In this document: piece after piece, positions 1,348 to 28,645 of the stretch
Numbering within the stretch: the first letter of the stretch is position 1
Layout: each line of letters begins with the position of its first letter
From: Telmatocola sphagniphila
GTDB lineage: Bacteria; Planctomycetota; Planctomycetia; Gemmatales; Gemmataceae
Reading direction: 5' to 3'
DNA: 32,000 bases
Assembly: GCF_018398935.1 (NCBI RefSeq)
Contig: NZ_CP074694.1
Coordinates: 6,360,001 to 6,392,000, forward strand
Notes under the pieces: model-generated
Database searches by the model: none
What the model saw: only the letters and a program-made list of their open reading frames with translations
Told to the model about the DNA's origin: nothing
Program-made: the position numbers and the translations under genes

Positions 1348-2199
1348 GTGATACGATATTTGGTAGTACTGGCAGGACTGCTATCTCCCGGCTATGTGCT
1401 GGCCCAGGGAAATTCCACGGAGAGGAAGTATATCTCGACTCCCTGGCATCTGGTCGACACCTGGTGGGATCTCGGCAAAGAAATGCCGTTCGAGAGCTAC
1501 AGCGTCGATGTTACCCTCAGCGATACGGTTAATCCGAAAATTCCCTTGTATATCGCGCCTATCGGACTGGGGCATTTGAACAAAATCCCCTTTTATGGTG
1601 GAATCCAGACTCAATTGGATGGAAATACCAAAAAGGACACCCGGCTGCGCAAGCTGGGACCTGGATTTCTCTTTTCAATGTGGGAAGAACGTCGGCTCGA
1701 GGCAATTCGCCCGGCGGACGGCGGTTTCTGCCAGAGTTCCGGCCACGAAGGAGATTTCGTCAGTGTCCGCCGACCTTATGAGTGGACGAAAGGGAAATAT
1801 ACCTATCGTCTCACCAAAATGGATAAAGAAATGGTCGATGGCCAGCCCGCCACCTGGGTGGGAGCATTCGTCTACAGCCATGAAAAGGACGAAAATATTT
1901 TCGTCGGGGCGCTGCGGTTCAAAGGGGAAAACCTGGTCCTGGATCGCAAAGTCGCCAATTTCGTGGAAATCTACGGACGGGTAATTCCCACCACCGATAT
2001 CCCCCACGTGCAGATTACTTTCGGTAACCTGAAAGTGAACGGTGAAAAAGTGCTTAATCCTACCGCCAGGGCCATTTATCCCAAGGGAGTGCCTGATTTT
2101 GCGGAGGCGACAACCGTGGGTCAATCGCTTCAGGTCACGCTGGGCACGGAAGTAACCAATCGCGAAAAAAGAGACATCAAATTACAATTCAAGGATTGA
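1348..2199 (+). CDS. secreted hypothetical protein (signal peptide; family not confidently recognised)
   Basis: 283-aa ORF with a GTG start and AAGGAAG 5 nt upstream. Sec-type signal peptide MIRYLVVLAGLLSPGYVLAQG. There is only a weak resemblance to DUF3472-like beta-sandwich proteins (GGIQTQ...FLFSMWE). Confidence 0.65.
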   Translation: MIRYLVVLAGLLSPGYVLAQGNSTERKYISTPWHLVDTWWDLGKEMPFESYSVDVTLSDTVNPKIPLYIAPIGLGHLNKIPFYGGIQTQLDGNTKKDTRLRKLGPGFLFSMWEERRLEAIRPADGGFCQSSGHEGDFVSVRRPYEWTKGKYTYRLTKMDKEMVDGQPATWVGAFVYSHEKDENIFVGALRFKGENLVLDRKVANFVEIYGRVIPTTDIPHVQITFGNLKVNGEKVLNPTARAIYPKGVPDFAEATTVGQSLQVTLGTEVTNREKRDIKLQFKD

Positions 2200-3037: not shown

Positions 3038-3502
3038 TTATTTGGCCTTTTCAACCTTCACCGAGTGGAGGTAAAAGTTCCTGTCGTATTCGTTCTCCTT
3101 GTATTCATCGTTGGTGTAGATCACGCTCAGGCTTACATCGCCCTTTTTCAGCTTGGCGGTCACTTTGTAATCTTTCTGGCTTTCTTCTGGAATTTCCAGA
3201 TTCTCCTTGAGAGTATCCTTGTCGGCTTTGAGAGTGATCAAGGCACCCTTCTTCATGGCTTTGTCGCACGAGGCGCCGAGCGTTATGGTGTATTCGCCAT
3301 CTGCAGGTACTTGGATTTTCAGGATGGCCGAGCCGTTGACGTAGTAGGAGATTTTGCCATCGTCGAATTTCAGGAGATCGGTTGAGGCTCCATTCGCTGG
3401 CTTCAGTTCCGCTTTGCTGAGATCGACCATAATGGCCTCCTCTGCTTTGGTCGAAGCTAAACCCAAAAGCATCGCACAGCACGTAATCAAAAATCGCTTC
3501 AT
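3038..3502 (-). CDS. small secreted hypothetical protein (beta-rich)
   Basis: 154-aa ORF with signal peptide MKRFLITCCAMLLGLASTKA and GAGGGA about 8 nt upstream of the ATG. Alternating beta-strand-like segments are present (YTITLGASCD, VSLSVIYTNDEY, FYLHSVKVE). No family recognised. Confidence 0.65.
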   Translation of the reverse strand: MKRFLITCCAMLLGLASTKAEEAIMVDLSKAELKPANGASTDLLKFDDGKISYYVNGSAILKIQVPADGEYTITLGASCDKAMKKGALITLKADKDTLKENLEIPEESQKDYKVTAKLKKGDVSLSVIYTNDEYKENEYDRNFYLHSVKVEKAK

Positions 3503-3854: not shown

Positions 3855-5597
3855 ATGCTTTCCATTTTTCGCAAGCTGTCTTTAGCAGGCTTGCTCCTAG
3901 TAACTGCTAATTCTGCAAGTAAAGCCACGGACTACACTTGGAATGGTACTTCCGGAAATGGCACTGCTGTCCCCAATCAGGCCAACTTCAGTCAAGCCTC
4001 AAATTGGCTGGGTACGGGAGCTGTGCCGGTCAGCGATGTGAATAACACCCAGCTCTATTTTGGTGGGCCAGGTACTTACACGAACATCAACTGGGATGCA
4101 GGTCCGTCTTTCAGTGCTTATTCGTATATCGTCAATAATCAGGCACCGGGGGACTACAACCTCAACGCAAACACCACAAAGAATCTCGGTATTGGTGCGG
4201 GGGGCATCGCGATTCAGTCCACGGGGACGAGTTCTAACTATCGTCAATTCATAATCGGGAATGGCTTTCTGGGATTGACCGCGGAAGCCACGCAAACCTG
4301 GTCGGCTTCTGCTGCCTACTCAATTATCAATGTTCAGGGCAGCTATAACAATGCGGGCTTCAATACGACGCTCAGCACCGGGTATAACACCTCCTCCATC
4401 GTTTTCGGTCTGGGTTCCGTCATCTCCGGCAGCGGGGGCCTGACGGCGACCGGGCCCGGAACTGTTCAAATCCAGGGCACCTCGAATACTTACACCGGCA
4501 GCACAATCGTTCAGGGCAATGCGATTCTCGATATTTACAATATCGCGAATGGCGGTTCGGTCAGCTCGATCGGGGCCTCCGATTCCAGTGCCAGCAATCT
4601 GGTCCTCCTCGGTGGAACGCTGCAAATTCGCCGGCAGGATCCGGTAAACGCTACCATGTCATCGGATCGCAGTTTTTCCGTGGCCAACGGATCCAGCACG
4701 ATCCTGATCGATGCGAATTCCTATTCCAGCTTTTCTGTATTCCTGACGGGAAATCAGACCACGATTGCTACTGGCAGTACCCTGGTGAAATCGGGTAACG
4801 GTGATCTTTACCTGGGATCGATCAATGCGGCCAGTTCTTCCCCGACAGGGTCCATCGTAGTCACCGGTGGCACGCTTCACATTAGCGGAAATACTGTAAA
4901 TGCGAACTTAACTGTGCAGGGAACGACCGGGGTGCTGGCCGGAGGTAACACAGGCGGTCAAGGCTACAACGGTACCATCTACCCCAATGTCGGAAGCATC
5001 CCCGCTTCGTACTACAGTCCCTCGGCTGGTGAAAATGTCATTTACGGGACGGTCTATGTTAACGGTGGCACGTTGGCTCCCGGGAATATCGGATCGGGTG
5101 CCTCCAACCATCTGACAATGAGCGTGGCAAACAGCGTAACTTTCGCGAATGCGAATGCGACCTTTGCCGTGGGGCTGGGCGGCAACTCACCCCAAGGAGG
5201 TTCCGGCTCGGATTTTTACAGCCAACTCCGCGTTTACAACTCCGCGGTCTCGCTGGGAAATGCAACCTTGCAGGCGATTCTCTACTACACGCCAGGTGTC
5301 AACGATCAGTTGTACATCATCAACAATCGCGGGGGCACCACGACTGGAACTTTTAACGGCTTGCCCCAAGGCGCGACCATCACGATCTCTGCCGTCGGGG
5401 CGGCGGCCAGCGCTTATACGGCACAGATTTCCTACACGGGGAATGAAGCTCTGGGCACTCTAACCGGGGGTAACGACGTGGTTCTGTATAACTTCAGCCC
5501 GGTTCCTGAACCGGCCATGCTGCTGTCGGTTGTGGCCCTGGGAGCTGGCTTCTTTGGGATCCTGCGCCGTCGTCGAACAGCCACCGCCTCGATCTGA
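3855..5597 (+). CDS. PEP-CTERM sorting-domain protein with autotransporter-associated beta-strand (PATR-type) repeats
   Basis: Start placed at ATG 3855, which yields signal peptide MLSIFRKLSLAGLLLVTANSASKA; the in-frame upstream 81 codons are rejected. The body is Gly/Asn/Ser/Thr-rich with repeats GGLTATGPGTVQIQGTSNTYTGSTIVQGNAIL and LVKSGNGDLYLGS...GSIVVTGGTLHISGNT. The C-terminus is VPEP (5502-5513) + AMLLSVVALGAGFFGIL + RRRR, a PEP-CTERM signal. Confidence 0.9.
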   Translation: MLSIFRKLSLAGLLLVTANSASKATDYTWNGTSGNGTAVPNQANFSQASNWLGTGAVPVSDVNNTQLYFGGPGTYTNINWDAGPSFSAYSYIVNNQAPGDYNLNANTTKNLGIGAGGIAIQSTGTSSNYRQFIIGNGFLGLTAEATQTWSASAAYSIINVQGSYNNAGFNTTLSTGYNTSSIVFGLGSVISGSGGLTATGPGTVQIQGTSNTYTGSTIVQGNAILDIYNIANGGSVSSIGASDSSASNLVLLGGTLQIRRQDPVNATMSSDRSFSVANGSSTILIDANSYSSFSVFLTGNQTTIATGSTLVKSGNGDLYLGSINAASSSPTGSIVVTGGTLHISGNTVNANLTVQGTTGVLAGGNTGGQGYNGTIYPNVGSIPASYYSPSAGENVIYGTVYVNGGTLAPGNIGSGASNHLTMSVANSVTFANANATFAVGLGGNSPQGGSGSDFYSQLRVYNSAVSLGNATLQAILYYTPGVNDQLYIINNRGGTTTGTFNGLPQGATITISAVGAAASAYTAQISYTGNEALGTLTGGNDVVLYNFSPVPEPAMLLSVVALGAGFFGILRRRRTATASI

Positions 5598-5623: not shown

Positions 5624-5660
5624 AACGGCAGATTCCGATCGGAATCTGCCGTTACTTTTT
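5624..5660. terminator. strong stem-loop terminator shared by convergent genes
   Basis: AACGGCAGATTCC (5624-5636) / GATC loop / GGAATCTGCCGTT (5641-5653) form a perfect 13-bp stem, followed by ACTTTTT on the + strand. The right arm overlaps the stop codon of the minus-strand gene by 2 nt. Confidence 0.6.
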
Positions 5661-6794
5661 GGGCAGTGGCTTGTTCGTTTGATTCAGAAGCGTTTCGTAA
5701 AGTTTTAAGAAGTCTTTGAGCGGTACGGAAAAAACACCGGAGACGGTGGAGTAGCCGAACTTGATTCCGTCCGGCCCTTTGGGTTCCAGTTTATTGCCCC
5801 AAGGATTCCAGAGTGTCACCATATCCGTGGCAGTGTTGTAATCCACAATCCCGTAGGCATGTCCCGTGGCGATACCGGGAGTCGCGTCCTCCTTTTTAGT
5901 ATGCGAAGTCGTGGCACATGCGATGATCTTATCCTTGTGCACGGCCGTCAAAACGCGGCGCACCTCGGCCTCCACTTTTGCACGCTCTTTCGTATCCGCC
6001 GGCTGCAGATGAGTTGATTCCACACTGTGCCCGGTCAGCATCTGAATGATTTTTGCCGTGGTGCCGCCCGAACTGATCAGGTCCATGGCGACCGCGGATT
6101 TCTTTCCCGTCAGCGTCCTCAACTCCATGGCGCAAGCTTCTTCCATCATATTTAGCCAGAGACCTTGCTCACCCGCTGAAGAACCGAGTGCGATTTGCAC
6201 CTCGGTCAGCTTCGGCACGCGCACCGGTTTCACGCCCGGAAAGTTCACCAGACAACTGCCGTCAATAATTTGATCGATCATCCCCTTCAGTCGATTGGGA
6301 TGCTGAGTGACGAATATCCCGATGGGGGCAATGACGAAGCAATCGCCCAGCCGACCCTGGCTGATTCCCTCTCGTTTGGGGGCATCTTTAGCGAAGAGTT
6401 CCTTCGGGGCATTCTGAATGTGTTTTCGATAGCGGGAAAAGGCCTGCTCCAGATTTACGGGTTTTGTCAACTGATCGCGCCGTTCGTCAGAATCCATGAT
6501 TTTGCTCGTTTGAAGCAGTGCGGATTCCTCCACGGAAGTGACATTATTCTGGGCTCTAAAGTAAAGGTGCAAGGCCGCGACAGCCGCGGCGTCATCGCCA
6601 TGAATCCGAGGGTTATTCACGAGAGAATTCACTCGATCCGCGGTGATTTTTCCCGTGGGTAGATCTTTGGTCCAACTTTCGTAACGGGCTTTTAGAACAT
6701 CCTCGAAGCTAACCTTCGGTTCTTTCGCGGCCTGAGCATAGAGGAGGCTGGGATAAAAAACAAATAGTAATGCCAAAGTAGGAGACAGCTTCAT
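5652..6794 (-). CDS. secreted calpain-like cysteine peptidase (peptidase C2 family core)
   Basis: 380-aa ORF with signal peptide MKLSPTLALLFVFYPSLLYAQA and GAGGA upstream of the ATG. A calpain-type triad is present in canonical order and spacing: GRLGDCFVIAPIG (Cys152), ATGHAYGIVDY (His312), LWNPWGN (Asn330). Confidence 0.8.
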   Translation of the reverse strand: MKLSPTLALLFVFYPSLLYAQAAKEPKVSFEDVLKARYESWTKDLPTGKITADRVNSLVNNPRIHGDDAAAVAALHLYFRAQNNVTSVEESALLQTSKIMDSDERRDQLTKPVNLEQAFSRYRKHIQNAPKELFAKDAPKREGISQGRLGDCFVIAPIGIFVTQHPNRLKGMIDQIIDGSCLVNFPGVKPVRVPKLTEVQIALGSSAGEQGLWLNMMEEACAMELRTLTGKKSAVAMDLISSGGTTAKIIQMLTGHSVESTHLQPADTKERAKVEAEVRRVLTAVHKDKIIACATTSHTKKEDATPGIATGHAYGIVDYNTATDMVTLWNPWGNKLEPKGPDGIKFGYSTVSGVFSVPLKDFLKLYETLLNQTNKPLPKK

Positions 6795-19478: not shown

Positions 19479-20531
19479 TCATAACCCTAAAGCATCCAAG
19501 TCGTCCATCAATTTGTCGAGATCATCGGCCGGCTGGTTGGTCCGATTTTCCTGCCGTTTGGGAATTCCGACAGCAGTTCCGACTGCGTTTCGGCCATCGG
19601 CGACGAGTTCCCGATCGCGTTCGGCCACCGCTTGCGAGAGTGGGTCACTCACTTCGCCGCCGAATAAGCGGGTGAGGTCGATTTTCAATCCGGAAACGCT
19701 GCCCACATCAGCACCGGCGATGGCGGGGCTTTTATATTCTGGGAATATAATCGCCTGTTGCGGGCAAACTCTTGAACAGGCTGGGCATCCTTTTTTGCAA
19801 TTATCCTGATTGGCCACCAGAATCGTATCGGCCTTGTCGACATCGTAGACGCCGAAGAGACAGAAATCGAGACATTCGAGGCAGTTGGTACAACGCGAAT
19901 AATCGATCACCGGGTACCAGCGACGACCGGGTGGGGCGAGCAGTTGTTCCTTGCTGAACGGATTGGCGTTTGTCGGAGCTTCGGCCGGTTCATTCTTGAC
20001 GGGAGTCAACAATCCTAACTGAACGAAGCTCGGCTTGAATTCAGTGGTGGTTTTCTGTTCCCGGCGGGTCTTACACTCCTGATAGATCCGGCGGATTTCC
20101 TGGACGTAAGCCTCCGGTAAATTCGAATCCCGCAAATCGAGGCAATAAATGTGTCGATCCGGAACAGGTCCCTGCACGCCGATCGCTTTATTTTCTTCGG
20201 GACTATCCGTGGGCGTGTCTTCTTCGTCTTCGCGATCCTCGGCCGCTTTAAGTTGAATTTCGCCGAGATTCCCCTTGATACCAATGCGATCCAACAGCCA
20301 GAAGGCCGCCCGGGAGTAAAGCCAGGACAGCACGACCATATCACCGGCGACATTGCCCAGAAATAGCCGACCCGTATGATCGGGGGACAGATCGTACAGG
20401 TTGGGGATAATCGAAACTTCCAGGCCCGGTTCCATAATCAGCGCGGCGGCTATGCTCTCTTCGAGCGAGCGCTTGGCGGGATGTTTACCGGGGGCCTGAG
20501 AAAGAATAACGTTGAGCTTATAGCGACTCAT
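19479..20531 (-). CDS. 2x[4Fe-4S] ferredoxin-domain protein with uncharacterised N-terminal region
   Basis: 350-aa ORF. The cysteine clusters are CTNCLECLDFC (C214/217/220/224) and CKKGCPACSRVCP (C245/249/252/256), at nt 19737-19919. The N-terminal ~200 aa have no recognised family and contain an acidic linker (EDREDEEDTPTDSPEE). The C-terminal tail is acidic (DDLDKLMDDLDALGL). No signal peptide or TM. Confidence 0.8.
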   Translation of the reverse strand: MSRYKLNVILSQAPGKHPAKRSLEESIAAALIMEPGLEVSIIPNLYDLSPDHTGRLFLGNVAGDMVVLSWLYSRAAFWLLDRIGIKGNLGEIQLKAAEDREDEEDTPTDSPEENKAIGVQGPVPDRHIYCLDLRDSNLPEAYVQEIRRIYQECKTRREQKTTTEFKPSFVQLGLLTPVKNEPAEAPTNANPFSKEQLLAPPGRRWYPVIDYSRCTNCLECLDFCLFGVYDVDKADTILVANQDNCKKGCPACSRVCPQQAIIFPEYKSPAIAGADVGSVSGLKIDLTRLFGGEVSDPLSQAVAERDRELVADGRNAVGTAVGIPKRQENRTNQPADDLDKLMDDLDALGL

Positions 20532-20582: not shown

Positions 20583-22169
20583 TCATTCCCCGTCCGGGAC
20601 CGCCCAGGGACAGGTGTTATACAACTCGCGGGCGAAGGCAACCGTGAATTTGGTCAAGGTCTTGCGGGTGGTTTCCAAGGGACCGGTGGCCGGCATGCCT
20701 ATCAGGATTCCGATTCTCGGTACTTGATCCTGTTGGGAAGTCGTCCGAAACTGTTTGAGAATCCATTCGCTGGTACTGAGCTGATTTTGTTGAGCTACCT
20801 CTTCCTCGGTCACGAAATGGTGACCGTCCTGAGTCCAATAGTGCAGCATCTGGTCCTGATTTTCGCGTCGAAACAACTGTTCGATGAGGACGATCTGCTG
20901 GCGGTCGCCAATTTTCAGATGTTCGACCGATTTCGACACCGGTTTAAAGCCGCGATTGGGCAGGCAGACCTCGGGATGATGGCCCCGTTTAACGAGGCTG
21001 CTGGCGGGCCAATACATCACCCAGACATGGACCTGATGGCCGATGGGGTTCGAATAGACCCGGCGAATGATCTGATCGGCCCCTAAAACTTGAGAAATCT
21101 CCTTGTCGACGAATTGAGCTTCTCCTTGCCACTCGCCGATCTTTAAGGGCAGGTTTGCCAGGGAGACAGTTTCGTCCTGCATCCAGATGCGCGAGTAACT
21201 CTTCCAGCCCAGATAGCCGGAGGCCGCCACGCTCGAGAGGATTATCAGAAGGCAGCTTATGCCCGAAAGAATTCGTTCCGGGGAATGCTCTGGAATAGGA
21301 ATGACAATAACCGGTTGAGTGCCGGTTCGTTTGGTCGCCAGCAGATTCGAAATCAGGATCGTGATAAACAGGGCGAGCAGAGCCATGCCATAACCGAGCA
21401 TTTCGTGATAGATGCCCGTGGTCACTACCGTACCGAAGTTTTCCTGCAGAATCCCGGTCACCACTATGCGCATCGTATTGCAGAATATCACGATCGGAAT
21501 GCTGAAGAGGAAAAGCAATACTCCTCTGCCAAAACTAAATCGGCGGTAATAAGCCACGAATGCGGCCATAGCCGGGATGGTAGTCATCGAACGAATTCCA
21601 CTGCAGGCTTCGACAATTTCCAACGGGCCGCTGGGGATGTGAATTTCAAAACCCTTGCGAACTACCTCGCAGCCCGAGAGCTTGAGGCCTTGAGTTGCCA
21701 AACCGGTGACCAACTCCTGCAGATAAGTGCGAAACGAGAAGAAAATCGCATCGGGTAACGGCAGCGAGAAAAAGATAAACAAAATCGGGAAAAATAGAAT
21801 TCGAGTTCGAGCCCAACCCCAGGTGCACAGAGCCAGCGAGAGAGTCGCCAGGCTGTAACCGAGGGTCAGCCACCAGAAGACAAAAGTGCTTTCGCTCACT
21901 TGCGAAAGGATGTACCAGGCGGGAACTATGCTGGCCATGCCGAGCAACAGGGGCAGGTAGCCAAGTAATGAAGTACCACCATCAGCCGACTTGAAACGCT
22001 CGCGATCGTGAAAAAAGATCAGCCAGCAGGAACCCAATGGTATGACGTAATGGCTGGAATAATCGGGCGAGCCGCTCCAGAGCAGGAACAGATGATAGAT
22101 CAGCCCGGCCCAGGCCAGGCCCAAAAGTACCCAAGCCGCCTGAAAGTATCGGTTTACGAAAATATTCAT
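20583..22169 (-). CDS. exosortase fused to EpsI-family periplasmic domain
   Basis: 528-aa ORF with a polytopic N-terminal ~290 aa. Exosortase catalytic motifs are intact: IVEACSGIRSM (Cys189, codon 21603-21605), CNTMRIV (Arg234), GIYHEMLGY (His255). An extra TM follows (ILSGISCLLIILSSVAASGYL), then EpsI-type motifs PLKIGEWQGE, IIRRVYSN, VMYW, HHPEVCLPNRGF. Confidence 0.9.
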   Translation of the reverse strand: MNIFVNRYFQAAWVLLGLAWAGLIYHLFLLWSGSPDYSSHYVIPLGSCWLIFFHDRERFKSADGGTSLLGYLPLLLGMASIVPAWYILSQVSESTFVFWWLTLGYSLATLSLALCTWGWARTRILFFPILFIFFSLPLPDAIFFSFRTYLQELVTGLATQGLKLSGCEVVRKGFEIHIPSGPLEIVEACSGIRSMTTIPAMAAFVAYYRRFSFGRGVLLFLFSIPIVIFCNTMRIVVTGILQENFGTVVTTGIYHEMLGYGMALLALFITILISNLLATKRTGTQPVIVIPIPEHSPERILSGISCLLIILSSVAASGYLGWKSYSRIWMQDETVSLANLPLKIGEWQGEAQFVDKEISQVLGADQIIRRVYSNPIGHQVHVWVMYWPASSLVKRGHHPEVCLPNRGFKPVSKSVEHLKIGDRQQIVLIEQLFRRENQDQMLHYWTQDGHHFVTEEEVAQQNQLSTSEWILKQFRTTSQQDQVPRIGILIGMPATGPLETTRKTLTKFTVAFARELYNTCPWAVPDGE

Positions 22170-22228
22170 GACGTCTTGGAAAGGGGATAGTTGCTCGAGC
22201 CGCCCGCGGAACGGTCGAGCGGAACCAA

Positions 22229-23677
22229 CTACTTCTTCTTTTCGCCTTCCGGCTCTTTCTTCGAATCCTTCGGTTCTTCCTTCTTGGGATAGCGGGAATT
22301 CAAATCGGTTAGCATGCGCACCGCGTCGGCCCGATGGATAAACGCCGATTCGGCGGCGATGGCCCCTTCGAGGTATTTCCGAATTTCATCCGAGAACTTC
22401 TTTTCATCCTTCTTTTTCAGGACCGACGCAATGAAGTAAGCGGTGTCGGGGGCTACTTGTTTATTCGACAGAGTAATACTGGTATTCAAAGCCTGCTCGG
22501 CATCCGATTCTTTACCGACCTTCAGCAATACCCAGCCCAGCGTGGACCAGGCTTCCGGATTGCGCGACAGGCGATCTTTGTTCACTCCGGCGATTTGAAG
22601 TGCACGCTGCTGCTGGGAGGGGGAACTGGTCTGCTCCGCCAGAACCTGAGCCAACTGGTTCGAAGCGAAAAAGTTCGCCGGTTGCGATCTCATCAGGTCT
22701 TCGAAAATTTTCTCGGCTTCATCGAGCCGATTTTCGTATCGAGCGAGTAATCCCAAAAGAGATTGCGTTTCCGGGGCCATCGGATCGAGCGTTTTCGCTT
22801 GATTAATCGAGATTTTCGCGGCGGCGAGATTACCGGTATCCAGAAGCCAGCCCCCATAGGCCTGATGAACGCGAGCCAGCTTGGGATTTTTCGTGATCGC
22901 TTTCTGGAACCACTCCTCGGCCTTGGCCTTATTCGGTTTATTCGCCCACAGCAAGCCCATGGCGACTTCCGGGGGATCGAGAGTGGGGTCTTCGGCCTTG
23001 GCCTGGGTCAGTTCGACGAAGGCTTCATCCGCTTTATTCAGATTGAAATAAACTTTGGCCAGTCGCTGCATCAGCGGGGCTGATTTGGGGTCGAGAATTT
23101 TCCAGGCCAGATAATGAGTTTTGGCCGATTCCCAGTCTCCTCGATCATCGAATGCCGTCGCCAAGCCTGCATTGGCTTCCTTTTCAAAGATCTTTTTCTG
23201 GTCCGAGCTCCATTTGTCCGACTTCGCGAGTGTGAGAGCTGTCTGGCAAGCCAGAATGGTTTCGGTAAATCGGAATTCCGAAAGAGCGATGCTGGCGATT
23301 TCCAGGTAGCATTCGGGATGGTTGGGATTTTCTATGACCGCCCGTTCCAGGTTGGTTCGCGCCATCTGAAAAACTTGCAAGCGGGCATTCTGATCGATTT
23401 GATTACTGCGAAGAACCGTGAGGAAAAATCGCGCCAGATTCAATCGCGCCGGTGCGATTTTCGGATCTTTCTTCTCGGCATCTTGCAGGAACTTCAGGCA
23501 TTCATCGAACTGACCTTTGTTGAAGGCTTTCTCCGCCTTGTCGACATCTTCGTTTTTCTTCTCCGCAGTTTTAGTATCCCCCTGAGCGTACAACTGCTGA
23601 TTCGGGGTGGCGAACCCCGCGAGGGTGATCGTACCCAGAAGAGCCACTCCGACTCGGGAGAGAATAAACGAGCGCAT
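22229..23677 (-). CDS. secreted TPR-repeat protein with Lys/Glu-rich C-terminal tail
   Basis: 482-aa ORF with signal peptide MRSFILSRVGVALLGTITLAGFA. TPR-like helical repeats run throughout (for example AEKAFNKGQFDECLKFLQDAEKKDP and WESAKTHYLAWKILDPKS). The tail is YPKKEEPKDSKKEPEGEKKK. The ATG (23675-23677) directly abuts the upstream TAG. Confidence 0.85.
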   Translation of the reverse strand: MRSFILSRVGVALLGTITLAGFATPNQQLYAQGDTKTAEKKNEDVDKAEKAFNKGQFDECLKFLQDAEKKDPKIAPARLNLARFFLTVLRSNQIDQNARLQVFQMARTNLERAVIENPNHPECYLEIASIALSEFRFTETILACQTALTLAKSDKWSSDQKKIFEKEANAGLATAFDDRGDWESAKTHYLAWKILDPKSAPLMQRLAKVYFNLNKADEAFVELTQAKAEDPTLDPPEVAMGLLWANKPNKAKAEEWFQKAITKNPKLARVHQAYGGWLLDTGNLAAAKISINQAKTLDPMAPETQSLLGLLARYENRLDEAEKIFEDLMRSQPANFFASNQLAQVLAEQTSSPSQQQRALQIAGVNKDRLSRNPEAWSTLGWVLLKVGKESDAEQALNTSITLSNKQVAPDTAYFIASVLKKKDEKKFSDEIRKYLEGAIAAESAFIHRADAVRMLTDLNSRYPKKEEPKDSKKEPEGEKKK

Positions 23678-25843
23678 CTATTTCACCTTTTTCATGTTTT
23701 CGAGGATTTTGTAGCCGACATCCAGTTCAAATGTTTCCCAGGTCGCCTTCGACATCTTACCGGCGATTTGAAAGTTCTCCCGAGCTTCCGATTTTCTATC
23801 CATTTTGAGGTAGGCCATCCCCAAATGAATGTAATAGATCGGCACTTTAGGATTGATTTCGATCAATTGCTTCAGAATCTCACGAGCCTGCTCGGGATGC
23901 CCGTTTTCGAGCAGAATTCGGGCAAGAACGTTGCGGGCGCTGGGTGGGAGAGCGTGACGTTCTTCCATTTCCTTCAGTAAACTGGAACTCTGGTCGGCCA
24001 GCGCGGGCAGATTCATTCCCCGCAGTTGAAGCCAGGCGCGGCGTTCGATACAGCTAAGATCCTGCGATTCCTTCAGAAGATAGTTGTCGTAGGCCCGTAC
24101 CGCCTGATCCGCGGCTACGGAATCCCAACCCAGTGTAGTGGATACCGGTTCCGCCTGACGGGCGTAGGCGTCTCCTTTGAGTTTCCAAGCGTTGTTGTAA
24201 TCGGGCCAACGTTGCAACATCTTTTCCGCTGCCGTAGCCACGTAATCAGTCGCCTCGCCTTCACAGGCCGTCCTCAAGCCCTCATAAATAACATCCGGCT
24301 TGGTGGCATCTTCCAGGACCTTATCCAGGAACTTCTGGATGGCCGTGTGAGCAGCGGCTTTATTCAGAGCTCGAATGTAGACATTGATGGCTCCGGCATC
24401 CGTCGGAATCTGGTCTTCCACTAGACTCATAGAGGCGATCGCCCGGGAAGATTGGCCTTGATCCAGATAGATGGAAGCCTCCTCTCGTGCGATCCACAAA
24501 GTCGCCTTCGACAATTGTTTGAATCGCTGACAAGCTTCCAGAGCAATGTCGTTTCGATTGGCCGCTCGGGCATTCTCGATGAGTAAGGCGATCAGCGTGG
24601 GATCGTTGGGTTTTCGTTCGACCGCTTGCTGGATGATCAACAGGCCGGTTTTGGTATCCACAATTCGGACGAGACGAGTCAGCGCGGCCAGCAGTTCGGG
24701 TTTATCCTCCCCGCAGGCAGTGATCCCTTTATCGATCAGAGCGATGGCTTCCTTCAATTCCTGTCGGCGAATGTGGATCAGAGCCAGCCCGACGTAGCCG
24801 ATCGGATTTGATGGCTCGCGCTGCATCACATTCTTCCAGCATCGCTCGACCCGATCTTCCAGTTCCTTTTTGAGCTCGTCGCTCTCCTCGGCATTAAATT
24901 TCTTCTGTTGAATCAGTTCGTCCAGAATCGCTAACTGACGAAACTGGCACTTACCGAATTCGGTATAAATGAAGTTGGGAATGTCCTCTTCACCCAGAAA
25001 AATCCTGGCCATATTGGAGTATGGAACCCAATAGCCTTTGAGATCGGGATATTGGTCGAAGAATTCGAGGGCGGTGAGGTAGCAGTTGTAATACTGAAGT
25101 TTGATGGCCGGGGGCCAGCGGTCCGAAAAGGCCTTCTTTTTGACCTGAAGTAGCATGTCCAACACCATGTAATCCCGCAACCCTTCAAAAGGCATATTCA
25201 GATTGCGGTGAAGTTGGATGGCCAGGCAAAGCAAATTGGGATTGGGCGAAGGTGTGGCTTGCTGGGGCGGAGGGAGTGATTTCAGGATCTCCCGAGCCTC
25301 TTCTTTATTTCCATTCTGTACGGAATCCTCCGCCAGCAGGCAGATGCACAGCCAATCGCCTTTGGCATAATCGAGTCGCTTTTTGGCTTCGCGACGCATT
25401 TCGGGCAGCTTGTTCAACTGCCGGTTTTTCAAGATGCAGTAGATGAGCATCGTCTGATCGTGCGGATCGGCCTCCAGAGTTTCCATGGCCTTCAAGCGGT
25501 TGCTTACCCGGGAATCCTCCGAACGGAATTTAGCGAGCTTTTCTAAAGTACTCTTCATCTTGTCCGTGTCGAGGGTCAGAGCCGCGACTTCAAACTCCCG
25601 CCAGGATTCCATGGCTTCGTTTGAGTGCATCTCCCCGCGGACTTCTTTCAAGCCGTAGTAGCCAACGAAAGTCAAAACTCCGGCGAAAAGAATCAGAACG
25701 AGGGAAATACCGCGCCGGGAAAGCCCGAATCGGTGGGCAAATTCGACGGGCATTTCTTCGAATTGGTATCTCAGCGCATTCCATGGGGAGAGGACGATGG
25801 AAGTGAGAATAGGAGGGGAAGCAGTTTCTCGGTATGCACTCAT
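23678..25843 (-). CDS. membrane-anchored TPR-repeat protein
   Basis: 721-aa ORF with a ~45-aa N-terminal segment, one TM (ISLVLILFAGVLTFVGYYGL) and then ~650 aa of TPR-like repeats (for example GHPEQAREILKQLIEINPKVPIYYIHLGMAYLKMDRKSEARENFQ). Confidence 0.85.
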   Translation of the reverse strand: MSAYRETASPPILTSIVLSPWNALRYQFEEMPVEFAHRFGLSRRGISLVLILFAGVLTFVGYYGLKEVRGEMHSNEAMESWREFEVAALTLDTDKMKSTLEKLAKFRSEDSRVSNRLKAMETLEADPHDQTMLIYCILKNRQLNKLPEMRREAKKRLDYAKGDWLCICLLAEDSVQNGNKEEAREILKSLPPPQQATPSPNPNLLCLAIQLHRNLNMPFEGLRDYMVLDMLLQVKKKAFSDRWPPAIKLQYYNCYLTALEFFDQYPDLKGYWVPYSNMARIFLGEEDIPNFIYTEFGKCQFRQLAILDELIQQKKFNAEESDELKKELEDRVERCWKNVMQREPSNPIGYVGLALIHIRRQELKEAIALIDKGITACGEDKPELLAALTRLVRIVDTKTGLLIIQQAVERKPNDPTLIALLIENARAANRNDIALEACQRFKQLSKATLWIAREEASIYLDQGQSSRAIASMSLVEDQIPTDAGAINVYIRALNKAAAHTAIQKFLDKVLEDATKPDVIYEGLRTACEGEATDYVATAAEKMLQRWPDYNNAWKLKGDAYARQAEPVSTTLGWDSVAADQAVRAYDNYLLKESQDLSCIERRAWLQLRGMNLPALADQSSSLLKEMEERHALPPSARNVLARILLENGHPEQAREILKQLIEINPKVPIYYIHLGMAYLKMDRKSEARENFQIAGKMSKATWETFELDVGYKILENMKKVK

Positions 25844-25981: not shown

Positions 25982-26392
25982 CTACTTGCCGGCTCCCAAT
26001 TCCTGGATCTTCCCCCAAAGTTCCTCGGAAACGGGCATGACACTGAGTCGACCGATCCGTACCAGTTCCCAGTTCGCGAAAATCGGATCGGCTTTGATGG
26101 TCTCCAAGGTTACCGGCACGCTCAAGCGACGTTGCGGCTTCACTTCCACCATGACGCTCTTCTGGTCGCCGGCCTCCGGATCTTCCGTCGGACCTCGGCT
26201 GACCACCATCTCCCCCACGATCTGCTTCTCTTTTCCGGTGTGATACAGCAGAACCTGGTCCCCCTTGGCCACGCTCCGAAGATGTTTTCGAGCCAGCGCG
26301 TTCGTGACGCCGGTCCACCAGGTTTTCTTGTCGTGGAGCAGTTGATCGTAGCTGTACTCTTCCGGTTCCGATTTGAACAACCAGTAAGCCAT
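25982..26392 (-). CDS. EVE (PUA-like) domain protein
   Basis: 136-aa ORF. MAYWLFKSEPEEYSYDQL...TWWTGVTNALARKHLRSVAKGDQVLLYHTGKEKQIVGEMVV is a typical stand-alone EVE domain pattern. AGGAG lies 5 nt upstream of the ATG, 24 nt after the preceding stop. Confidence 0.85.
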   Translation of the reverse strand: MAYWLFKSEPEEYSYDQLLHDKKTWWTGVTNALARKHLRSVAKGDQVLLYHTGKEKQIVGEMVVSRGPTEDPEAGDQKSVMVEVKPQRRLSVPVTLETIKADPIFANWELVRIGRLSVMPVSEELWGKIQELGAGK

Positions 26393-26416: not shown

Positions 26417-28645
26417 CTAGTCCTTTTCGAACATCGGTTTAAGAATGTCGATGACGTTGGAAAAATCATCCGTCCATAGAGGAGTACTCGGGCCAAAACG
26501 GGTGGGGATCCAGGGGCTTCTGCGCAGCTCCTTAAGGTCTTCGACATTCCGGAGGACGATGACCCACTGACAGGGAAACTGCCCCTTTTGAAGATCCGAA
26601 TCTCCCTGATTGTCGCGCACTTCCAAAGGTGGATCGAAGCTCGAGCCAATTTTTGCGAGTACTGGCGGCAAATCGAGATAGCGATTAGACACGTGGAACA
26701 GAAGCATGCCGCCCGGCGCCAATTTCGACAAATACATCTCGACTGCTTCCCGGGTGATCAGATGAATCGGTATGGAATCGGAAGAGAAGGCATCGAGGAT
26801 CAAAAGGTCAAATTTTCCATCCGGTTCTTCCTTCAGACGCAGTCGGGCATCGCCGACGTGGAAAGTCTGGGAGTTCGCCGGAGAATTTTTGATGAAGTGG
26901 AAATATTTCTCATTCTGAGCGATTTGAATCACTGCCGGATCGAGTTCGTACAGAATCCAATCCTCATTGGGCTTGGCGTAGCTTAGCATTGAGCCGATCC
27001 CCAAACCGACCACGCCGACCGTCTTGATCGGTTGGCTGACATCACTCCTTCGCCAGCGCAACATAACGCTTCCAGCAGGTCCGCGCGGATGGTAGTAGGT
27101 CAGAGGTTCATTTATCCGAGCCGGGTCGAGCCACTCCTGGCCATGGATTGTTCGACCGTGCACCAGACGGATGAACGGATAATCGGGATCCAGAGTGACC
27201 TTCAAAACTCCCAGATAATTTCGTTCGCGGAGCAGCACATTTCCAGTGGCGCCGGCATCGAAGGCGCTCAGGGCGGATACTACCAGCAGCGCCAGCATAA
27301 ACCGGAGGGGCCGATCCACCAGTGTGAAAATATAGATCATCGGCAAGCCGTAGAGCAAGGCTCCTCGGAGACTCACCAGGGGGAGGCCGGACGATTCGTG
27401 CAGGGAATGGATAATACTCTGTATGGCAGCCAGTTTCAGCAGGGCCATGATTGCACCGATAGCCACAGCAAGGGCAGTCGGAATCAGCACATCTTTCCAA
27501 TCGAATTTTGCCGTTTCCGGCGTTGGGCGGATCCGACTCGCGAGGATCAGCATCATGGGATATTCGATCAAGCCTAAGCGCTGGAAAATGAATGGAGCGA
27601 GGAGGGCGTTGAAAGCACTGCCGAGCACTCCGCCAAGCGCAATCCACAGAAAGTAGGCAGTTAAATGATCCGGCGTCGGCCGGTCTTTCGCTAATACGCC
27701 GTGACATAAGAGGCAGATCAAAAAAAATGTGATGAGATGAATGCCCAGAACGACAAAAACCGGATCGGCGGCTTCGATTAATAGGACAAAAAATAACGCA
27801 AGGATAGAGATCGATGTGGCCGTGGAAACGAATTTGAGTGGGACTCGAATTATTGAACTGAAAGCCCAAATAAAAGACAGGAAGTAGAGACCCAGGGGAG
27901 CCATCCAGAGCAGGGGCATGGAGGCAATGTCGGTGGTAATGCAGGTCGTCACGCCTTGCAACAGACTGGAAGGAAGGAAAGCCAACCCAATCCAGCGAAG
28001 TATCCGGGACGTCGTCAGAGGTTCCGATTTTTCCGGGACGGCTTCTGTGGCATGCGTTTTTCCTCCCGCAAAGATACCGCAAAAGAGAATCAGCCCAATC
28101 AAAATGTAAAAGGCATACCGCCAGGTCTCGGCTTGTTCCGCCAGTCGCAGTTTCGGTTCTATCCACAGCGGATAAGCGATGAGTAGGGCCAGGCTTCCCA
28201 GGTTACTGGCCGCGTACAGAAAGTAAGGATCGTTCGCAGAGGAATGATCCGTCTGGCTAAACCAGCGTTGCAACAGCGGGGCAGTCGTCGAAACCGCAAA
28301 AAAGGCCGGTCCCACTCCAAAGAAAAGTGTTTTCAGCAACCACAGAATGGGAGACTCGTTTTCGGACGGCGACTGGTTTTGGAGCGAAATCGGAACGGTC
28401 ATCGCCGCCACTACCAGGACAACGAGATGAAGAATCATCTGACGGTTGGCCGGTACGTTCCGAGTCATAAAGTGGCTGTAGAGGTACCCCAGAAGCAGAA
28501 CGGCCTGAAAGAAGACCAGACAGGTGTTCCAGACCGCCGGGGACCCGCCTACCGAGGGCAGTAACATCCGGCCCACGAGCGGTTGGATGGCCATTAAGAG
28601 ACCAGCACTTACCAGCAGAGTGAGGGAGTAGAGAATCGGCGCCAC
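26417..28645 (-). CDS. fused polytopic membrane (MFS-like) / spermidine-synthase-like methyltransferase-fold protein
   Basis: 742-aa ORF with a GTG start and AGGGGA 5 nt upstream. The N-terminal ~480 aa carry about 12 hydrophobic helices. The C-terminal domain has aminopropyltransferase-like blocks VGVVGLGIGSM, ILYELDPAVIQIAQ, FDLLILDAFSSDSIP, GGMLLFHVSN. Confidence 0.85.
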   Translation of the reverse strand: MAPILYSLTLLVSAGLLMAIQPLVGRMLLPSVGGSPAVWNTCLVFFQAVLLLGYLYSHFMTRNVPANRQMILHLVVLVVAAMTVPISLQNQSPSENESPILWLLKTLFFGVGPAFFAVSTTAPLLQRWFSQTDHSSANDPYFLYAASNLGSLALLIAYPLWIEPKLRLAEQAETWRYAFYILIGLILFCGIFAGGKTHATEAVPEKSEPLTTSRILRWIGLAFLPSSLLQGVTTCITTDIASMPLLWMAPLGLYFLSFIWAFSSIIRVPLKFVSTATSISILALFFVLLIEAADPVFVVLGIHLITFFLICLLCHGVLAKDRPTPDHLTAYFLWIALGGVLGSAFNALLAPFIFQRLGLIEYPMMLILASRIRPTPETAKFDWKDVLIPTALAVAIGAIMALLKLAAIQSIIHSLHESSGLPLVSLRGALLYGLPMIYIFTLVDRPLRFMLALLVVSALSAFDAGATGNVLLRERNYLGVLKVTLDPDYPFIRLVHGRTIHGQEWLDPARINEPLTYYHPRGPAGSVMLRWRRSDVSQPIKTVGVVGLGIGSMLSYAKPNEDWILYELDPAVIQIAQNEKYFHFIKNSPANSQTFHVGDARLRLKEEPDGKFDLLILDAFSSDSIPIHLITREAVEMYLSKLAPGGMLLFHVSNRYLDLPPVLAKIGSSFDPPLEVRDNQGDSDLQKGQFPCQWVIVLRNVEDLKELRRSPWIPTRFGPSTPLWTDDFSNVIDILKPMFEKD

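What the first reader, a model, noticed from the sequence alone, without database searches (positions are those of the whole stretch)
20583..25843. Compact TM-TPR / secreted-TPR / exosortase-EpsI module lacking any polysaccharide or PrsK-PrsR context: possible distinct protein-sorting system
Seen: the 528-aa ORF joins an exosortase core with all three catalytic residues intact (Cys189 in IVEACSGIRSM, Arg234 in NTMRIV, His255 in IYHEMLG), an extra TM, and an EpsI-type domain (PLKIGEWQGE, HHPEVCLPNRGF). Directly upstream on the same strand lie a 721-aa single-TM protein with ~650 aa of TPR and a 482-aa signal-peptide TPR protein with a KE-rich tail. The first gene's TAG (23678-23680) abuts the second's ATG (23675-23677), and the spacer to the exosortase is 59 nt. 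Established: in the original PEP-CTERM/EpsH description (Haft et al. 2006) exosortase A sits in EPS biosynthesis loci with EpsI, a TPR lipoprotein (PrsT) and the PrsK/PrsR two-component pair. Many later exosortase subfamilies have their own dedicated neighbourhoods. Here no glycosyltransferase, Wza/Wzc-type or PrsK/PrsR gene occurs anywhere in the 32 kb. Neither TPR protein has a lipobox, and both TPR domains and the EpsI domain are predicted to face the periplasm. Inference: this is a self-contained periplasm-facing sorting module in which two TPR proteins could act as cargo receptor or scaffold for the fused exosortase-EpsI. It may be a subtype whose accessory proteins have not been described. 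The PEP-CTERM protein at 3855..5597 is a candidate substrate.
Basis: partly seen in the sequence, partly recalled or inferred. Interest (0 to 1): 0.7.

Follow-up and report, generated by a model that had tools for sequence, protein, structure and literature searches.

The report
Gemmataceae exosortase-EpsI with two TPR partners
This is a lineage-specific version of the known PEP-CTERM/exosortase surface-protein sorting machinery, with two previously undescribed TPR partner proteins; in relatives it sits inside an ordinary exopolysaccharide gene cluster, so it is not a new polysaccharide-independent system.

Summary
The 528-aa protein is a true exosortase fused to EpsI. It fails the cutoff of every named exosortase subfamily (XrtD 194 bits against 400). 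It belongs to a distinct clade found only in Gemmataceae-type genomes.

The two TPR proteins (here T1, membrane-anchored, and T2, secreted) are conserved families. T1 and T2 form a tight, translationally coupled pair. They lie next to this exosortase in about half of the informative loci.

In relatives the same T1-T2-exosortase block runs straight into a priming glycosyltransferase, a Wzc-like kinase, a CpsB phosphatase and Wza. More distant XrtD-like exosortases also sit directly upstream of that glycosyltransferase. Telmatocola has only lost the physical linkage. PrsK/PrsR were described only in Proteobacteria. The ferredoxin-like gene downstream is not conserved.

Verdict: an unnamed exosortase subfamily with two PrsT-like but distinct TPR partners. 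It is a new variant of a known kind, of moderate interest.

The parts
23678..25843 (-). T1: membrane-anchored TPR protein (721 aa by longest ORF; NCBI aa). It has a basic N-terminal tail, one TM helix at about residues 41-66, and a large helical/TPR domain predicted to face the periplasm.
   Evidence: ORF. TM segment. TPR Pfam hits at residues 621-699. Homologues at 23-29% identity over nearly the full length lie next to the exosortase or T2 in Gemmataceae loci. T1 residues 332-691 align to T2 residues 98-425 (hhalign probability 97.9%, E 4.8e-13). PrsT score is 59.8 bits against a cutoff of 312.2.
22229..23677 (-). T2: secreted (signal peptidase I type) periplasmic TPR protein of 482 aa with a lysine-rich C-terminal tail. 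Its ATG directly abuts the stop codon of T1.
   Evidence: ORF and junction. Alignment A2 has 10 homologues with 49% mean column identity, a conserved signal peptide ending ...A|Q and a K/P-rich tail. The family has about 18 clusters above 230 bits and then a sharp drop. PrsT score is 80.4 bits against 312.2 and PilW 81.4 against 154.
21330..22169 (-). Exosortase (EpsH) multi-pass membrane core, residues 1-280 of the 528-aa protein, with Cys189, Arg234 and His255.
   Evidence: PF09721 at 151.5 bits and TIGR02602 at 118.1 against 105.55. The catalytic residues are invariant in A1. The AlphaFold model has pLDDT 90.7.
20583..21329 (-). Linker, an extra TM helix (about residues 297-329) and the EpsI domain (about residues 321-528, with invariant H397 and C402 and a clade-specific C-terminal ELYxxCPWAxP tail), plus the stop codon.
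   Evidence: PF11984 at 77.5 bits and TIGR02914 at 62.8 against 42.8. Clade members align through to residue 525, whereas XrtD-like proteins stop near residue 456. The model shows a beta-rich domain at residues 347-519.
3855..5597 (+). Candidate substrate: a secreted beta-strand-repeat protein with a C-terminal PEP-CTERM signal (VPEP, a hydrophobic helix, then RRRR; signal at about nt 5502-5576).
   Evidence: Translation. TIGR02595 scores 17.6 against 16. PEP-CTERM proteins above the TIGR02595 cutoff lie within 10 kb of the exosortase in L031 and L032, and an unscored regex-level VPEP tail in L016. The L031 and L016 proteins carry the same autotransporter-type beta-strand repeat.

Best explanation
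The locus encodes the protein-sorting arm of a PEP-CTERM/exosortase system of a Gemmataceae-specific, so far unnamed subtype.

Proposed mechanism:
- The 528-aa enzyme sits in the inner membrane.
- Its Cys189/Arg234/His255 site cleaves the VPEP motif of PEP-CTERM proteins at the periplasmic face and passes the protein on to an acceptor. This step is inferred from the sortase/exosortase paradigm.
- The fused EpsI domain is brought to the periplasm by the ninth TM helix.
- T1 (membrane-anchored) and T2 (soluble, periplasmic) are a co-translated pair of related TPR solenoids. They occupy the genomic and probably the functional niche of PrsT, as a periplasmic scaffold or adaptor linking cargo, exosortase-EpsI and the polysaccharide export apparatus.

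The inferred ancestral arrangement is T1-T2-exosortase/EpsI-(NusG-like)-priming Glycos_transf_4-Wzc-like kinase-CpsB, with Wza nearby. Telmatocola keeps only the first three genes together. Its polysaccharide genes must lie elsewhere in the 6.6 Mb genome.

Shown: family membership, conservation of catalytic residues, gene-order conservation, EPS linkage in relatives, and PEP-CTERM proteins nearby.

Inferred: the catalysis, the topology, the role of the TPR pair, and the ancestral order.
For: Identity of the exosortase:
- It passes the exosortase and EpsI family models but no named subfamily. Eight other clade members also fail every named subfamily.
- An exhaustive HMMER scan finds a separate clade at 29-40% identity aligned over residues 1-525. 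Scores then fall away (through some fragments) to XrtD-like proteins at 28% identity or less whose matches mostly end near residue 450-460.
- The catalytic residues are invariant in the clade.
- All the genome loci that match at about 28% identity or more over most of the protein's length are Gemmataceae, Fimbriiglobus or Gemmata, apart from two probably mislabelled MAGs.

Linkage to T1 and T2:
- T2 lies directly upstream on the same strand in 10 of 26 informative exosortase-anchored loci.
- T1 is upstream of T2 in 8 of those 10 loci (3 of them cut by a contig end); the other 2 have too little upstream sequence to tell.
- T1 is divergently adjacent in 4-5 further loci.
- In the reciprocal search from T2, T1 is directly upstream in 15 of 16 informative metagenome loci. 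The exosortase is directly downstream in 6 of them.
- The T1 stop and T2 start abut or overlap in the window, L123, L124 and L125.

Linkage to polysaccharide genes:
- Glycos_transf_4 lies within about 1.3 kb downstream on the same strand in 12 of 22 informative loci.
- The Wzc-like kinase and CpsB follow it in L006, L024, L028, L032 and L088.
- L125 and L126 have proper gene calls showing T1 > T2 > Exosortase_EpsH+EpsI > Glycos_transf_4 > Wzz/AAA_31 > CpsB_CapC, with Poly_export on the opposite strand.
- Outgroup XrtD-like loci also show exosortase followed by Glycos_transf_4.
- A rough neighbour-joining tree places the window protein basal. T1/T2 and Glycos_transf_4 linkage are scattered over the clade.

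Comparison with PrsT and substrates:
- Bona fide PrsT (326-590 bits against 312) sits near fused exosortase-EpsI genes in other phyla, whereas T1 and T2 score 50-80 bits.
- PEP-CTERM proteins lie near the exosortase in L031 and L032 and in the window; L016 has a regex-level VPEP tail that was not scored by the model.
Against: - Linkage is not universal. Twelve of 26 exosortase-anchored loci show neither T1 nor T2 within 10 kb.
- About half of the T2-anchored lineages, including the closest relative of the Telmatocola T2 (63% identity, L123), have no exosortase downstream.
- Genome-level co-occurrence could not be tested.
- No experiment or co-folding result links the TPR pair to the exosortase.
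- The candidate substrate lies 15 kb away and scores barely above the cutoff.
- The model of the enzyme has no significant structural neighbour that could inform the chemistry.
- The tree is a simple neighbour-joining tree without support values.
Confidence: 0.65

Rival explanations
1. One reading: a self-contained, polysaccharide-independent periplasmic protein-sorting system. The two TPR proteins act as cargo receptors for the fused exosortase-EpsI.
For: In this window, and for 10 kb beyond its high end, there are no EPS genes. L011 and L013 also show T1-T2-exosortase without EPS genes within 10 kb.
Against: The same block is contiguous with Glycos_transf_4, Wzc-like and CpsB genes (and Wza in L125/L126) in L006, L015, L030, L032, L088 and L125/L126. 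The exosortase-to-Glycos_transf_4 adjacency is shared with outgroup loci. Loss of physical linkage in a 6.6 Mb genome does not show functional independence.
Confidence: 0.1
2. T1-T2 is an independent envelope or polysaccharide-export accessory pair, for example a periplasmic scaffold for the Wzc/Wza export route. It is not a partner of the exosortase. The adjacency only reflects shared residence in cell-surface gene clusters.
For: The T1-T2 pair is much tighter (15 of 16) than T2-exosortase linkage (6 of about 17). T1-T2 stands alone in L123, L124, L090, L095-L097 and L099-L100. A glycosyltransferase-like gene (by N-terminal sequence, not scanned against a family library) lies divergently upstream of T1 in L095 and L097.
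Against: Where other conserved neighbours are present, T2 is always immediately upstream of the exosortase and not of the EPS genes. T1 remains adjacent to the exosortase, in divergent orientation, in L007, L009, L012, L014 and L021, where no EPS gene is nearby. In the window, L011 and L013 the pair is with the exosortase and without EPS genes.
Confidence: 0.2
3. The exosortase here is an ordinary member of XrtD (VPLPA-CTERM specific) that merely scores low because of planctomycete divergence.
For: XrtD is the best-scoring named model and shares the fused exosortase-EpsI architecture.
Against: The score is 193.9 bits against a cutoff of 400, and clade members score 102-189. Nearby tails read VPEP, not VPLPA. 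The clade separates from XrtD-like proteins in score and in C-terminal coverage.
Confidence: 0.05

Closest known systems
PEP-CTERM/EpsH (exosortase) system of Haft et al. 2006 (PMC1569441), XrtA type with EpsI and PrsT
   Same: Exosortase core with a Cys/Arg/His site. An EpsI domain fused to it, a fusion already noted in 2006. A TPR protein encoded nearby. PEP-CTERM (VPEP) substrates. Residence in an exopolysaccharide locus in relatives.
   Different: XrtA scores 116.5 bits against a cutoff of 208. There is no PrsK/PrsR. There are two smaller TPR proteins (one TM-anchored, one soluble, neither a lipoprotein) instead of the roughly 900-aa lipoprotein PrsT (59.8 and 80.4 bits against 312.2). In Telmatocola the EPS genes are not adjacent.
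XrtD, VPLPA-CTERM-specific exosortase (NCBIfam TIGR04152)
   Same: It is the best-scoring named subfamily. It has the same fused exosortase-EpsI architecture of about 490-530 aa. The distant, unclassified exosortase-EpsI relatives examined (L003-L005, 23-24% identity; not themselves scored against TIGR04152) are followed by the same Glycos_transf_4 gene.
   Different: The score is 193.9 bits against 400. The alignment to the XrtD model stops near residue 459, whereas clade members share a further 70-aa conserved C-terminal part. The neighbouring sorting signals are VPEP. The clade is restricted to Gemmataceae.
PrsT (TIGR02917), the XrtA/PEP-CTERM system TPR-repeat lipoprotein
   Same: It is a TPR solenoid encoded beside exosortase genes, and the best or near-best NCBIfam hit for both T1 and T2. 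True PrsT is found beside fused exosortase-EpsI genes in Acidobacteriota, Desulfobacterota and Nitrospirota loci.
   Different: T1 and T2 fall far below the cutoff. They are 480 and 720 aa rather than about 750-900 aa. They have no lipobox. They are split into a membrane-anchored and a soluble protein that are translationally coupled.

Membership tests
Exosortase/EpsH (TIGR02602, PF09721) | Score above the family cutoff | tested here: met
   TIGR02602 scores 118.1 against 105.55. PF09721 scores 151.5 against 25.7.
Exosortase/EpsH (TIGR02602, PF09721) | Conserved Cys, Arg and His of the proposed active site | tested here: met
   C189, R234 and H255 are present and invariant in 40 clade members.
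EpsI (TIGR02914, PF11984) | Score above the family cutoff, located C-terminal to or adjacent to an exosortase | tested here: met
   TIGR02914 scores 62.8 against 42.8. PF11984 scores 77.5 against 26.1. The domain is fused after an extra TM helix.
XrtD (TIGR04152) | Score above the curated cutoff of 400 bits | tested here: not met
   The window protein scores 193.9 bits. Eight other clade members score 102-189 bits.
XrtD (TIGR04152) | Cognate VPLPA-CTERM substrates | tested here: not met
   The tails found in the window and near related loci read VPEP and match PEP-CTERM TIGR02595. Whole genomes were not surveyed.
XrtA system (TIGR03109 with PrsK/PrsR/PrsT) | XrtA score above 208 bits | tested here: not met
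   The score is 116.5 bits.
XrtA system (TIGR03109 with PrsK/PrsR/PrsT) | PrsK histidine kinase and PrsR sigma-54 regulator in the genome or locus | tested here: not met
   No such family was hit in the window or in the next 10 kb. The rest of the genome was not searched.
XrtW, XrtV, XrtB, XrtC and other named exosortase subfamilies | Score above the respective curated cutoff | tested here: not met
   XrtW 134.1 against 425. XrtV 95.8 against 313. XrtC 67.6 against 300. XrtB 62 against 275. All others score lower.
PrsT (TIGR02917) | Score above 312.2 bits | tested here: not met
   T1 scores 59.8 and T2 scores 80.4. Gemmataceae homologues score 50.6-61.3.
PrsT (TIGR02917) | Lipoprotein signal sequence | tested here: not met
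   T2 and its homologues have an A-x-A type signal ending ...A|Q, with no cysteine at the cleavage site. T1 has an uncleaved TM anchor. This rests on sequence inspection; no dedicated predictor was run.
PEP-CTERM sorting domain (TIGR02595), for the protein ending at 5597 | Score above 16 bits; PEP motif, hydrophobic helix and basic cluster at the C-terminus | tested here: met
   The score is 17.6 bits. The tail reads VPEPAMLLSVVALGAGFFGILRRRR.
PEP-CTERM/EpsH system as defined in 2006 | Exosortase gene embedded among exopolysaccharide biosynthesis genes | tested here: inconclusive
   Not met in this window or in 10 kb beyond it. Met in 12 of 22 informative related loci and in L088 and L125/L126.

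The most novel reading that the evidence does not exclude
T1 and T2 are dedicated, obligatory partners of a Gemmataceae-specific exosortase-EpsI. They form a membrane-tethered periplasmic TPR receptor that captures PEP-CTERM cargo and hands it to the enzyme. This would be the first defined accessory complex for any exosortase, replacing PrsT, and it would work even when unlinked from polysaccharide genes.
Probability: 0.3. Interest if true: 0.55.

Novelty: new variant of a known kind. Interest (0 to 1): 0.35.

Why it matters
To my knowledge no exosortase has been characterised biochemically, and I found no solved structure related to this one by sequence or fold. The roles of EpsI and of the TPR protein PrsT are unknown. 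A compact, conserved three-gene block gives a defined set of candidate interaction partners that could be tested by co-folding, pull-downs or genetics in planctomycetes. It would also justify a new curated exosortase subfamily and two new TPR protein families for annotation. At present these genes are labelled only 'TPR protein', 'hypothetical' or generic exosortase. The locus does not change the general picture that exosortase sorting is tied to exopolysaccharide production.

Tried and rejected
1. The word-indexed homology search with T1 returned only the protein itself, which suggested an orphan. tblastn against fetched loci showed this was a sensitivity artefact.
2. The word-indexed search with the exosortase gave only one hit at 33% identity. 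The exhaustive HMMER scan revealed the real clade.
3. The ferredoxin-like 350-aa gene was considered as a fourth member. It is never found near related loci. A sigma-70-like site lies in its own upstream spacer. It was rejected.
5. The Rfam scan of the window found no RNA family. No intergenic terminator-like site was found within the T1-T2-exosortase block.
6. Extending the locus beyond the low end of the window failed, because the NYN protein is not on record.
7. Haft et al. 2012 on exosortase subfamilies is not held in the library.

Full report
OBSERVATION

The window comes from Telmatocola sphagniphila (Planctomycetota, Gemmataceae). T1 and T2 are 100% identical to proteins of that 6.59 Mb genome. 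The surrounding genes are typical planctomycete families such as PSCyt1/PSCyt2/PSD1 and DUF1501.

The three minus-strand ORFs are exactly as described: 23678-25843 (721 aa), 22229-23677 (482 aa) and 20583-22169 (528 aa). The TAG and ATG abut, and the spacer to the exosortase gene is 59 nt.

The 528-aa protein passes the generic exosortase models. PF09721 scores 151.5 bits and TIGR02602 scores 118.1 against a cutoff of 105.55. It also passes the EpsI models, with PF11984 at 77.5 bits and TIGR02914 at 62.8 against 42.8.

Pfam and NCBIfam scans of the other ORFs of the window gave no glycosyltransferase, Wza/Wzc or PrsK/PrsR hit. Neither did the called genes in the next 10 kb beyond the high end. 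The protein ending at 5597 carries a PEP-CTERM tail (VPEP, a hydrophobic helix, then RRRR) that just passes TIGR02595 at 17.6 against 16.

WHAT THE EXOSORTASE IS

No named subfamily model is satisfied. XrtD is best at 193.9 bits against a cutoff of 400. XrtW scores 134.1 against 425 and XrtA 116.5 against 208.

The word-indexed search found almost no relatives. An exhaustive HMMER scan of 1.84 billion representatives then showed a discrete clade. Several dozen representatives at 29-40% identity align over residues 1-525. Below them the scores fall away (through some fragments) to XrtD-like proteins at 28% identity or less whose matches mostly end near residue 450-460.

An alignment of 40 clade members has several invariant residues: C189, N231, R234, H255, H397 and C402. 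It also shows a conserved C-terminal ELYxxCPWAxP tail. Eight further clade members also fail every named subfamily cutoff.

In species-representative genomes, the loci that match at about 28% identity or more over most of the protein's length are all Gemmataceae, Fimbriiglobus or Gemmata. The exceptions are two MAGs labelled Alcaligenaceae that look mislabelled.

An AlphaFold model built from the alignment is confident (pLDDT 90.7, pTM 0.88). It shows the helical membrane core, a long extra helix at residues 297-329 and a beta-rich EpsI domain. It has no significant neighbour among solved structures, by fold or by sequence.

THE TWO TPR PROTEINS

T1 looked like an orphan in the word-indexed search. 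That was an artefact of the search method. tblastn against the fetched loci finds T1 homologues at 25-30% identity over nearly the full length, and T2 homologues at 32-42% identity, beside the exosortase gene.

Among 26 exosortase-anchored loci with enough upstream sequence:
- T2 is directly upstream on the same strand in 10.
- T1 lies upstream of T2 in 8 of those 10 loci (3 of them cut by a contig end); the other 2 have too little upstream sequence to tell.
- T1 is divergently adjacent in L007, L009, L012 and L021, and partially in L014.
- Twelve loci show neither T1 nor T2.

T2 homologues share a signal peptide ending ...A|Q, 49% mean column identity and a lysine/proline-rich tail. T1 homologues share a basic N-terminal tail followed by one TM segment. 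T1 residues 332-691 align colinearly to T2 residues 98-425 (hhalign probability 97.9%, E 4.8e-13). T1 therefore looks like a membrane-anchored, extended relative of T2.

A reciprocal scan of metagenome contigs with the T2 profile gave 20 true T2 loci. T1 is directly upstream in 15 of the 16 informative ones. The exosortase is directly downstream in 6 of them (L088, L092, L093, L094, L103, L105); the remaining loci with downstream sequence (at least 1.5 kb; eleven loci) show none.

In loci with proper gene calls, the T1 stop and the T2 start abut or overlap, as they do in the window. T1-T2 is thus a tight, probably translationally coupled pair, and it is often but not always next to the exosortase gene. 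The closest T2 relative (63% identity, L123) has no exosortase downstream.

A profile search shows about 18 T2 clusters above 230 bits and then a sharp drop to generic 800-aa TPR proteins. The sources name them only 'tetratricopeptide repeat protein' or 'hypothetical protein'.

THE POLYSACCHARIDE QUESTION

Clustering the neighbours of the 30 related loci showed recurrent genes downstream of the exosortase that are absent from the window:
- a Glycos_transf_4 priming transferase (PF00953, 119 bits);
- a Wzc-like P-loop protein (AAA_31);
- a CpsB/CapC phosphatase (PF19567);
- a NusG-like protein.

Glycos_transf_4 lies within about 1.3 kb downstream on the same strand in 12 of 22 informative loci, plus two partial cases.

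The full string T1 > T2 > exosortase > Glycos_transf_4 > Wzc > CpsB occurs in L006, L032 and L088. L125 and L126 have real gene calls and precomputed Pfam hits. They read T1 (723 aa), T2 (481 aa), Exosortase_EpsH+EpsI (541 aa), Glycos_transf_4, Wzz/AAA_31 and CpsB_CapC, with Poly_export (Wza) on the opposite strand.

More distant fused relatives at 23-25% identity are also immediately followed by Glycos_transf_4, inside classical EPS clusters. A rough neighbour-joining tree places the Telmatocola protein at the base of the clade. Both kinds of linkage are scattered across it.

The simplest reading is an ancestral T1-T2-exosortase-EPS arrangement from which Telmatocola (like L011 and L013) lost the physical link to the EPS genes.

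Haft et al. 2006 link PrsK/PrsR/PrsT to a DNA motif found in Proteobacteria. Their table gives the planctomycete Rhodopirellula baltica an EpsH and 12 PEP-CTERM proteins but no EpsI, PrsK, PrsR or PrsT. They also already described EpsH-EpsI fusions and a TPR partner (PMC1569441).

In Acidobacteriota, Desulfobacterota and Nitrospirota loci fetched here, true PrsT (326-590 bits against 312) sits near fused exosortase-EpsI genes. T1 and T2 score only 50-80 bits. They are therefore positional analogues of PrsT, not members of that family.

SUBSTRATES AND THE FERREDOXIN-LIKE GENE

PEP-CTERM tails occur within 10 kb of the exosortase in L016, L031 and L032. In L031 the PEP-CTERM gene lies directly upstream of T1 on the same strand. 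The L031 and L032 proteins pass TIGR02595 at 21.2 and 21.4 bits. The L016 tail was found only by the motif search: the model returned no PEP-CTERM hit for it at E <= 0.01. The L031 and L016 proteins hit the autotransporter-type beta-strand repeat model, which the window's candidate just misses (19.3 bits against 19.85). This is weak but consistent support for the window's candidate substrate.

The 350-aa ferredoxin-like gene downstream is never conserved near related loci. Its upstream spacer holds the best sigma-70-like match of the region. It is not part of the module.

MECHANISM (INFERRED)

- The exosortase core cleaves at the VPEP motif on the periplasmic face through Cys189 and transfers the protein to an unknown acceptor.
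- The ninth helix places EpsI in the periplasm.
- T1 (N-terminus in the cytoplasm, C-terminal domain outside) and T2 (secreted) form a periplasmic TPR scaffold in the role assumed for PrsT. This scaffold would link cargo, enzyme and the polysaccharide export apparatus.

None of these steps is shown experimentally for any exosortase of this type.

VERDICT

The sequence observation is correct, and the idea of a distinct subtype with undescribed accessory proteins is supported. The headline idea of a polysaccharide-independent sorting system is not supported.

This is a new variant of a known kind. It is worth curating as a new exosortase subfamily with two partner TPR families, and it offers a convenient three-gene set for interaction studies. 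It is not a surprise to specialists. Interest is 0.35.

Noticed in passing
window 19479-20531 (-): A 350-aa protein has a 4Fe-4S dicluster domain only at residues 203-262 and an unassigned N-terminal 200 aa. It lies directly downstream of the exosortase gene but is never conserved there. The best sigma-70-like site of the region (20566-20538, minus strand) lies in its upstream spacer.
   Followed up: partly
L011, L013, L024, L028 (for example L024 6375-9473): A WD40 beta-propeller protein of about 1000-1100 aa with a signal peptide recurs within a few kb of the exosortase in four related loci. In L024 and L028 it lies directly upstream, where T1/T2 are missing. It may be an alternative accessory protein.
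   Followed up: partly
L053, L059, L061, L064, L065, L072, L075, L080 and others (Desulfobacterales): In these loci the EpsI-like match lies upstream of the exosortase-core match and in a different frame. EpsI is therefore a separate gene placed before the exosortase, the reverse of the fused order seen here.
   Followed up: no
L010 and L025: Two MAGs labelled 'uncultured Alcaligenaceae' carry the Gemmataceae-type exosortase clade, and L010 also carries a planctomycete DUF1501 gene. They are probably mis-binned or mislabelled.
   Followed up: no
window 5652-6794 (-): A 380-aa protein carries a calpain-family cysteine protease domain (Peptidase_C2, 58.5 bits). The gene begins about 55 nt beyond the end of the PEP-CTERM gene, on the opposite strand (convergent).
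   Followed up: no
window 26417-28645 (-): A 742-aa polytopic membrane protein has a C-terminal spermidine-synthase-like domain (NF037959, fused MFS/spermidine synthase, 53.3 bits against 40). It lies just upstream of an EVE-domain gene (25982-26392) and of T1.
   Followed up: no
window 23678-25843 and 20583-22169: Start-codon calls disagree between sources. NCBI's T1 is 691 aa against 721 aa for the longest ORF. One gene caller's exosortase is 513 aa against 528 aa. Alignment with the nearest homologue, P0026, supports the 528-aa start.
   Followed up: partly
L123 (Logan SRR10663368 contig, 4358 bp): The closest relative of the Telmatocola T2 (63% identity) has the end of an upstream ORF abutting its start (not checked against T1). 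It is followed by MJ0711_N and Peptidase_M24 genes, not by an exosortase. Linkage therefore varies even among close relatives.
   Followed up: partly
window 3038-3502 (-) and 1348-2199 (+): Small proteins with CBM60 (carbohydrate-binding) and DUF3472 domains lie near the PEP-CTERM gene. They may be secreted glycan-binding proteins.
   Followed up: no
window 22193-22220: A GC-rich imperfect palindrome (GCTCGAGCCGCCCGCGG / CCGCGGAACGGTCGAGC, 76% complementary) lies in the 59-nt spacer between T2 and the exosortase gene. Its function is unknown.
   Followed up: no
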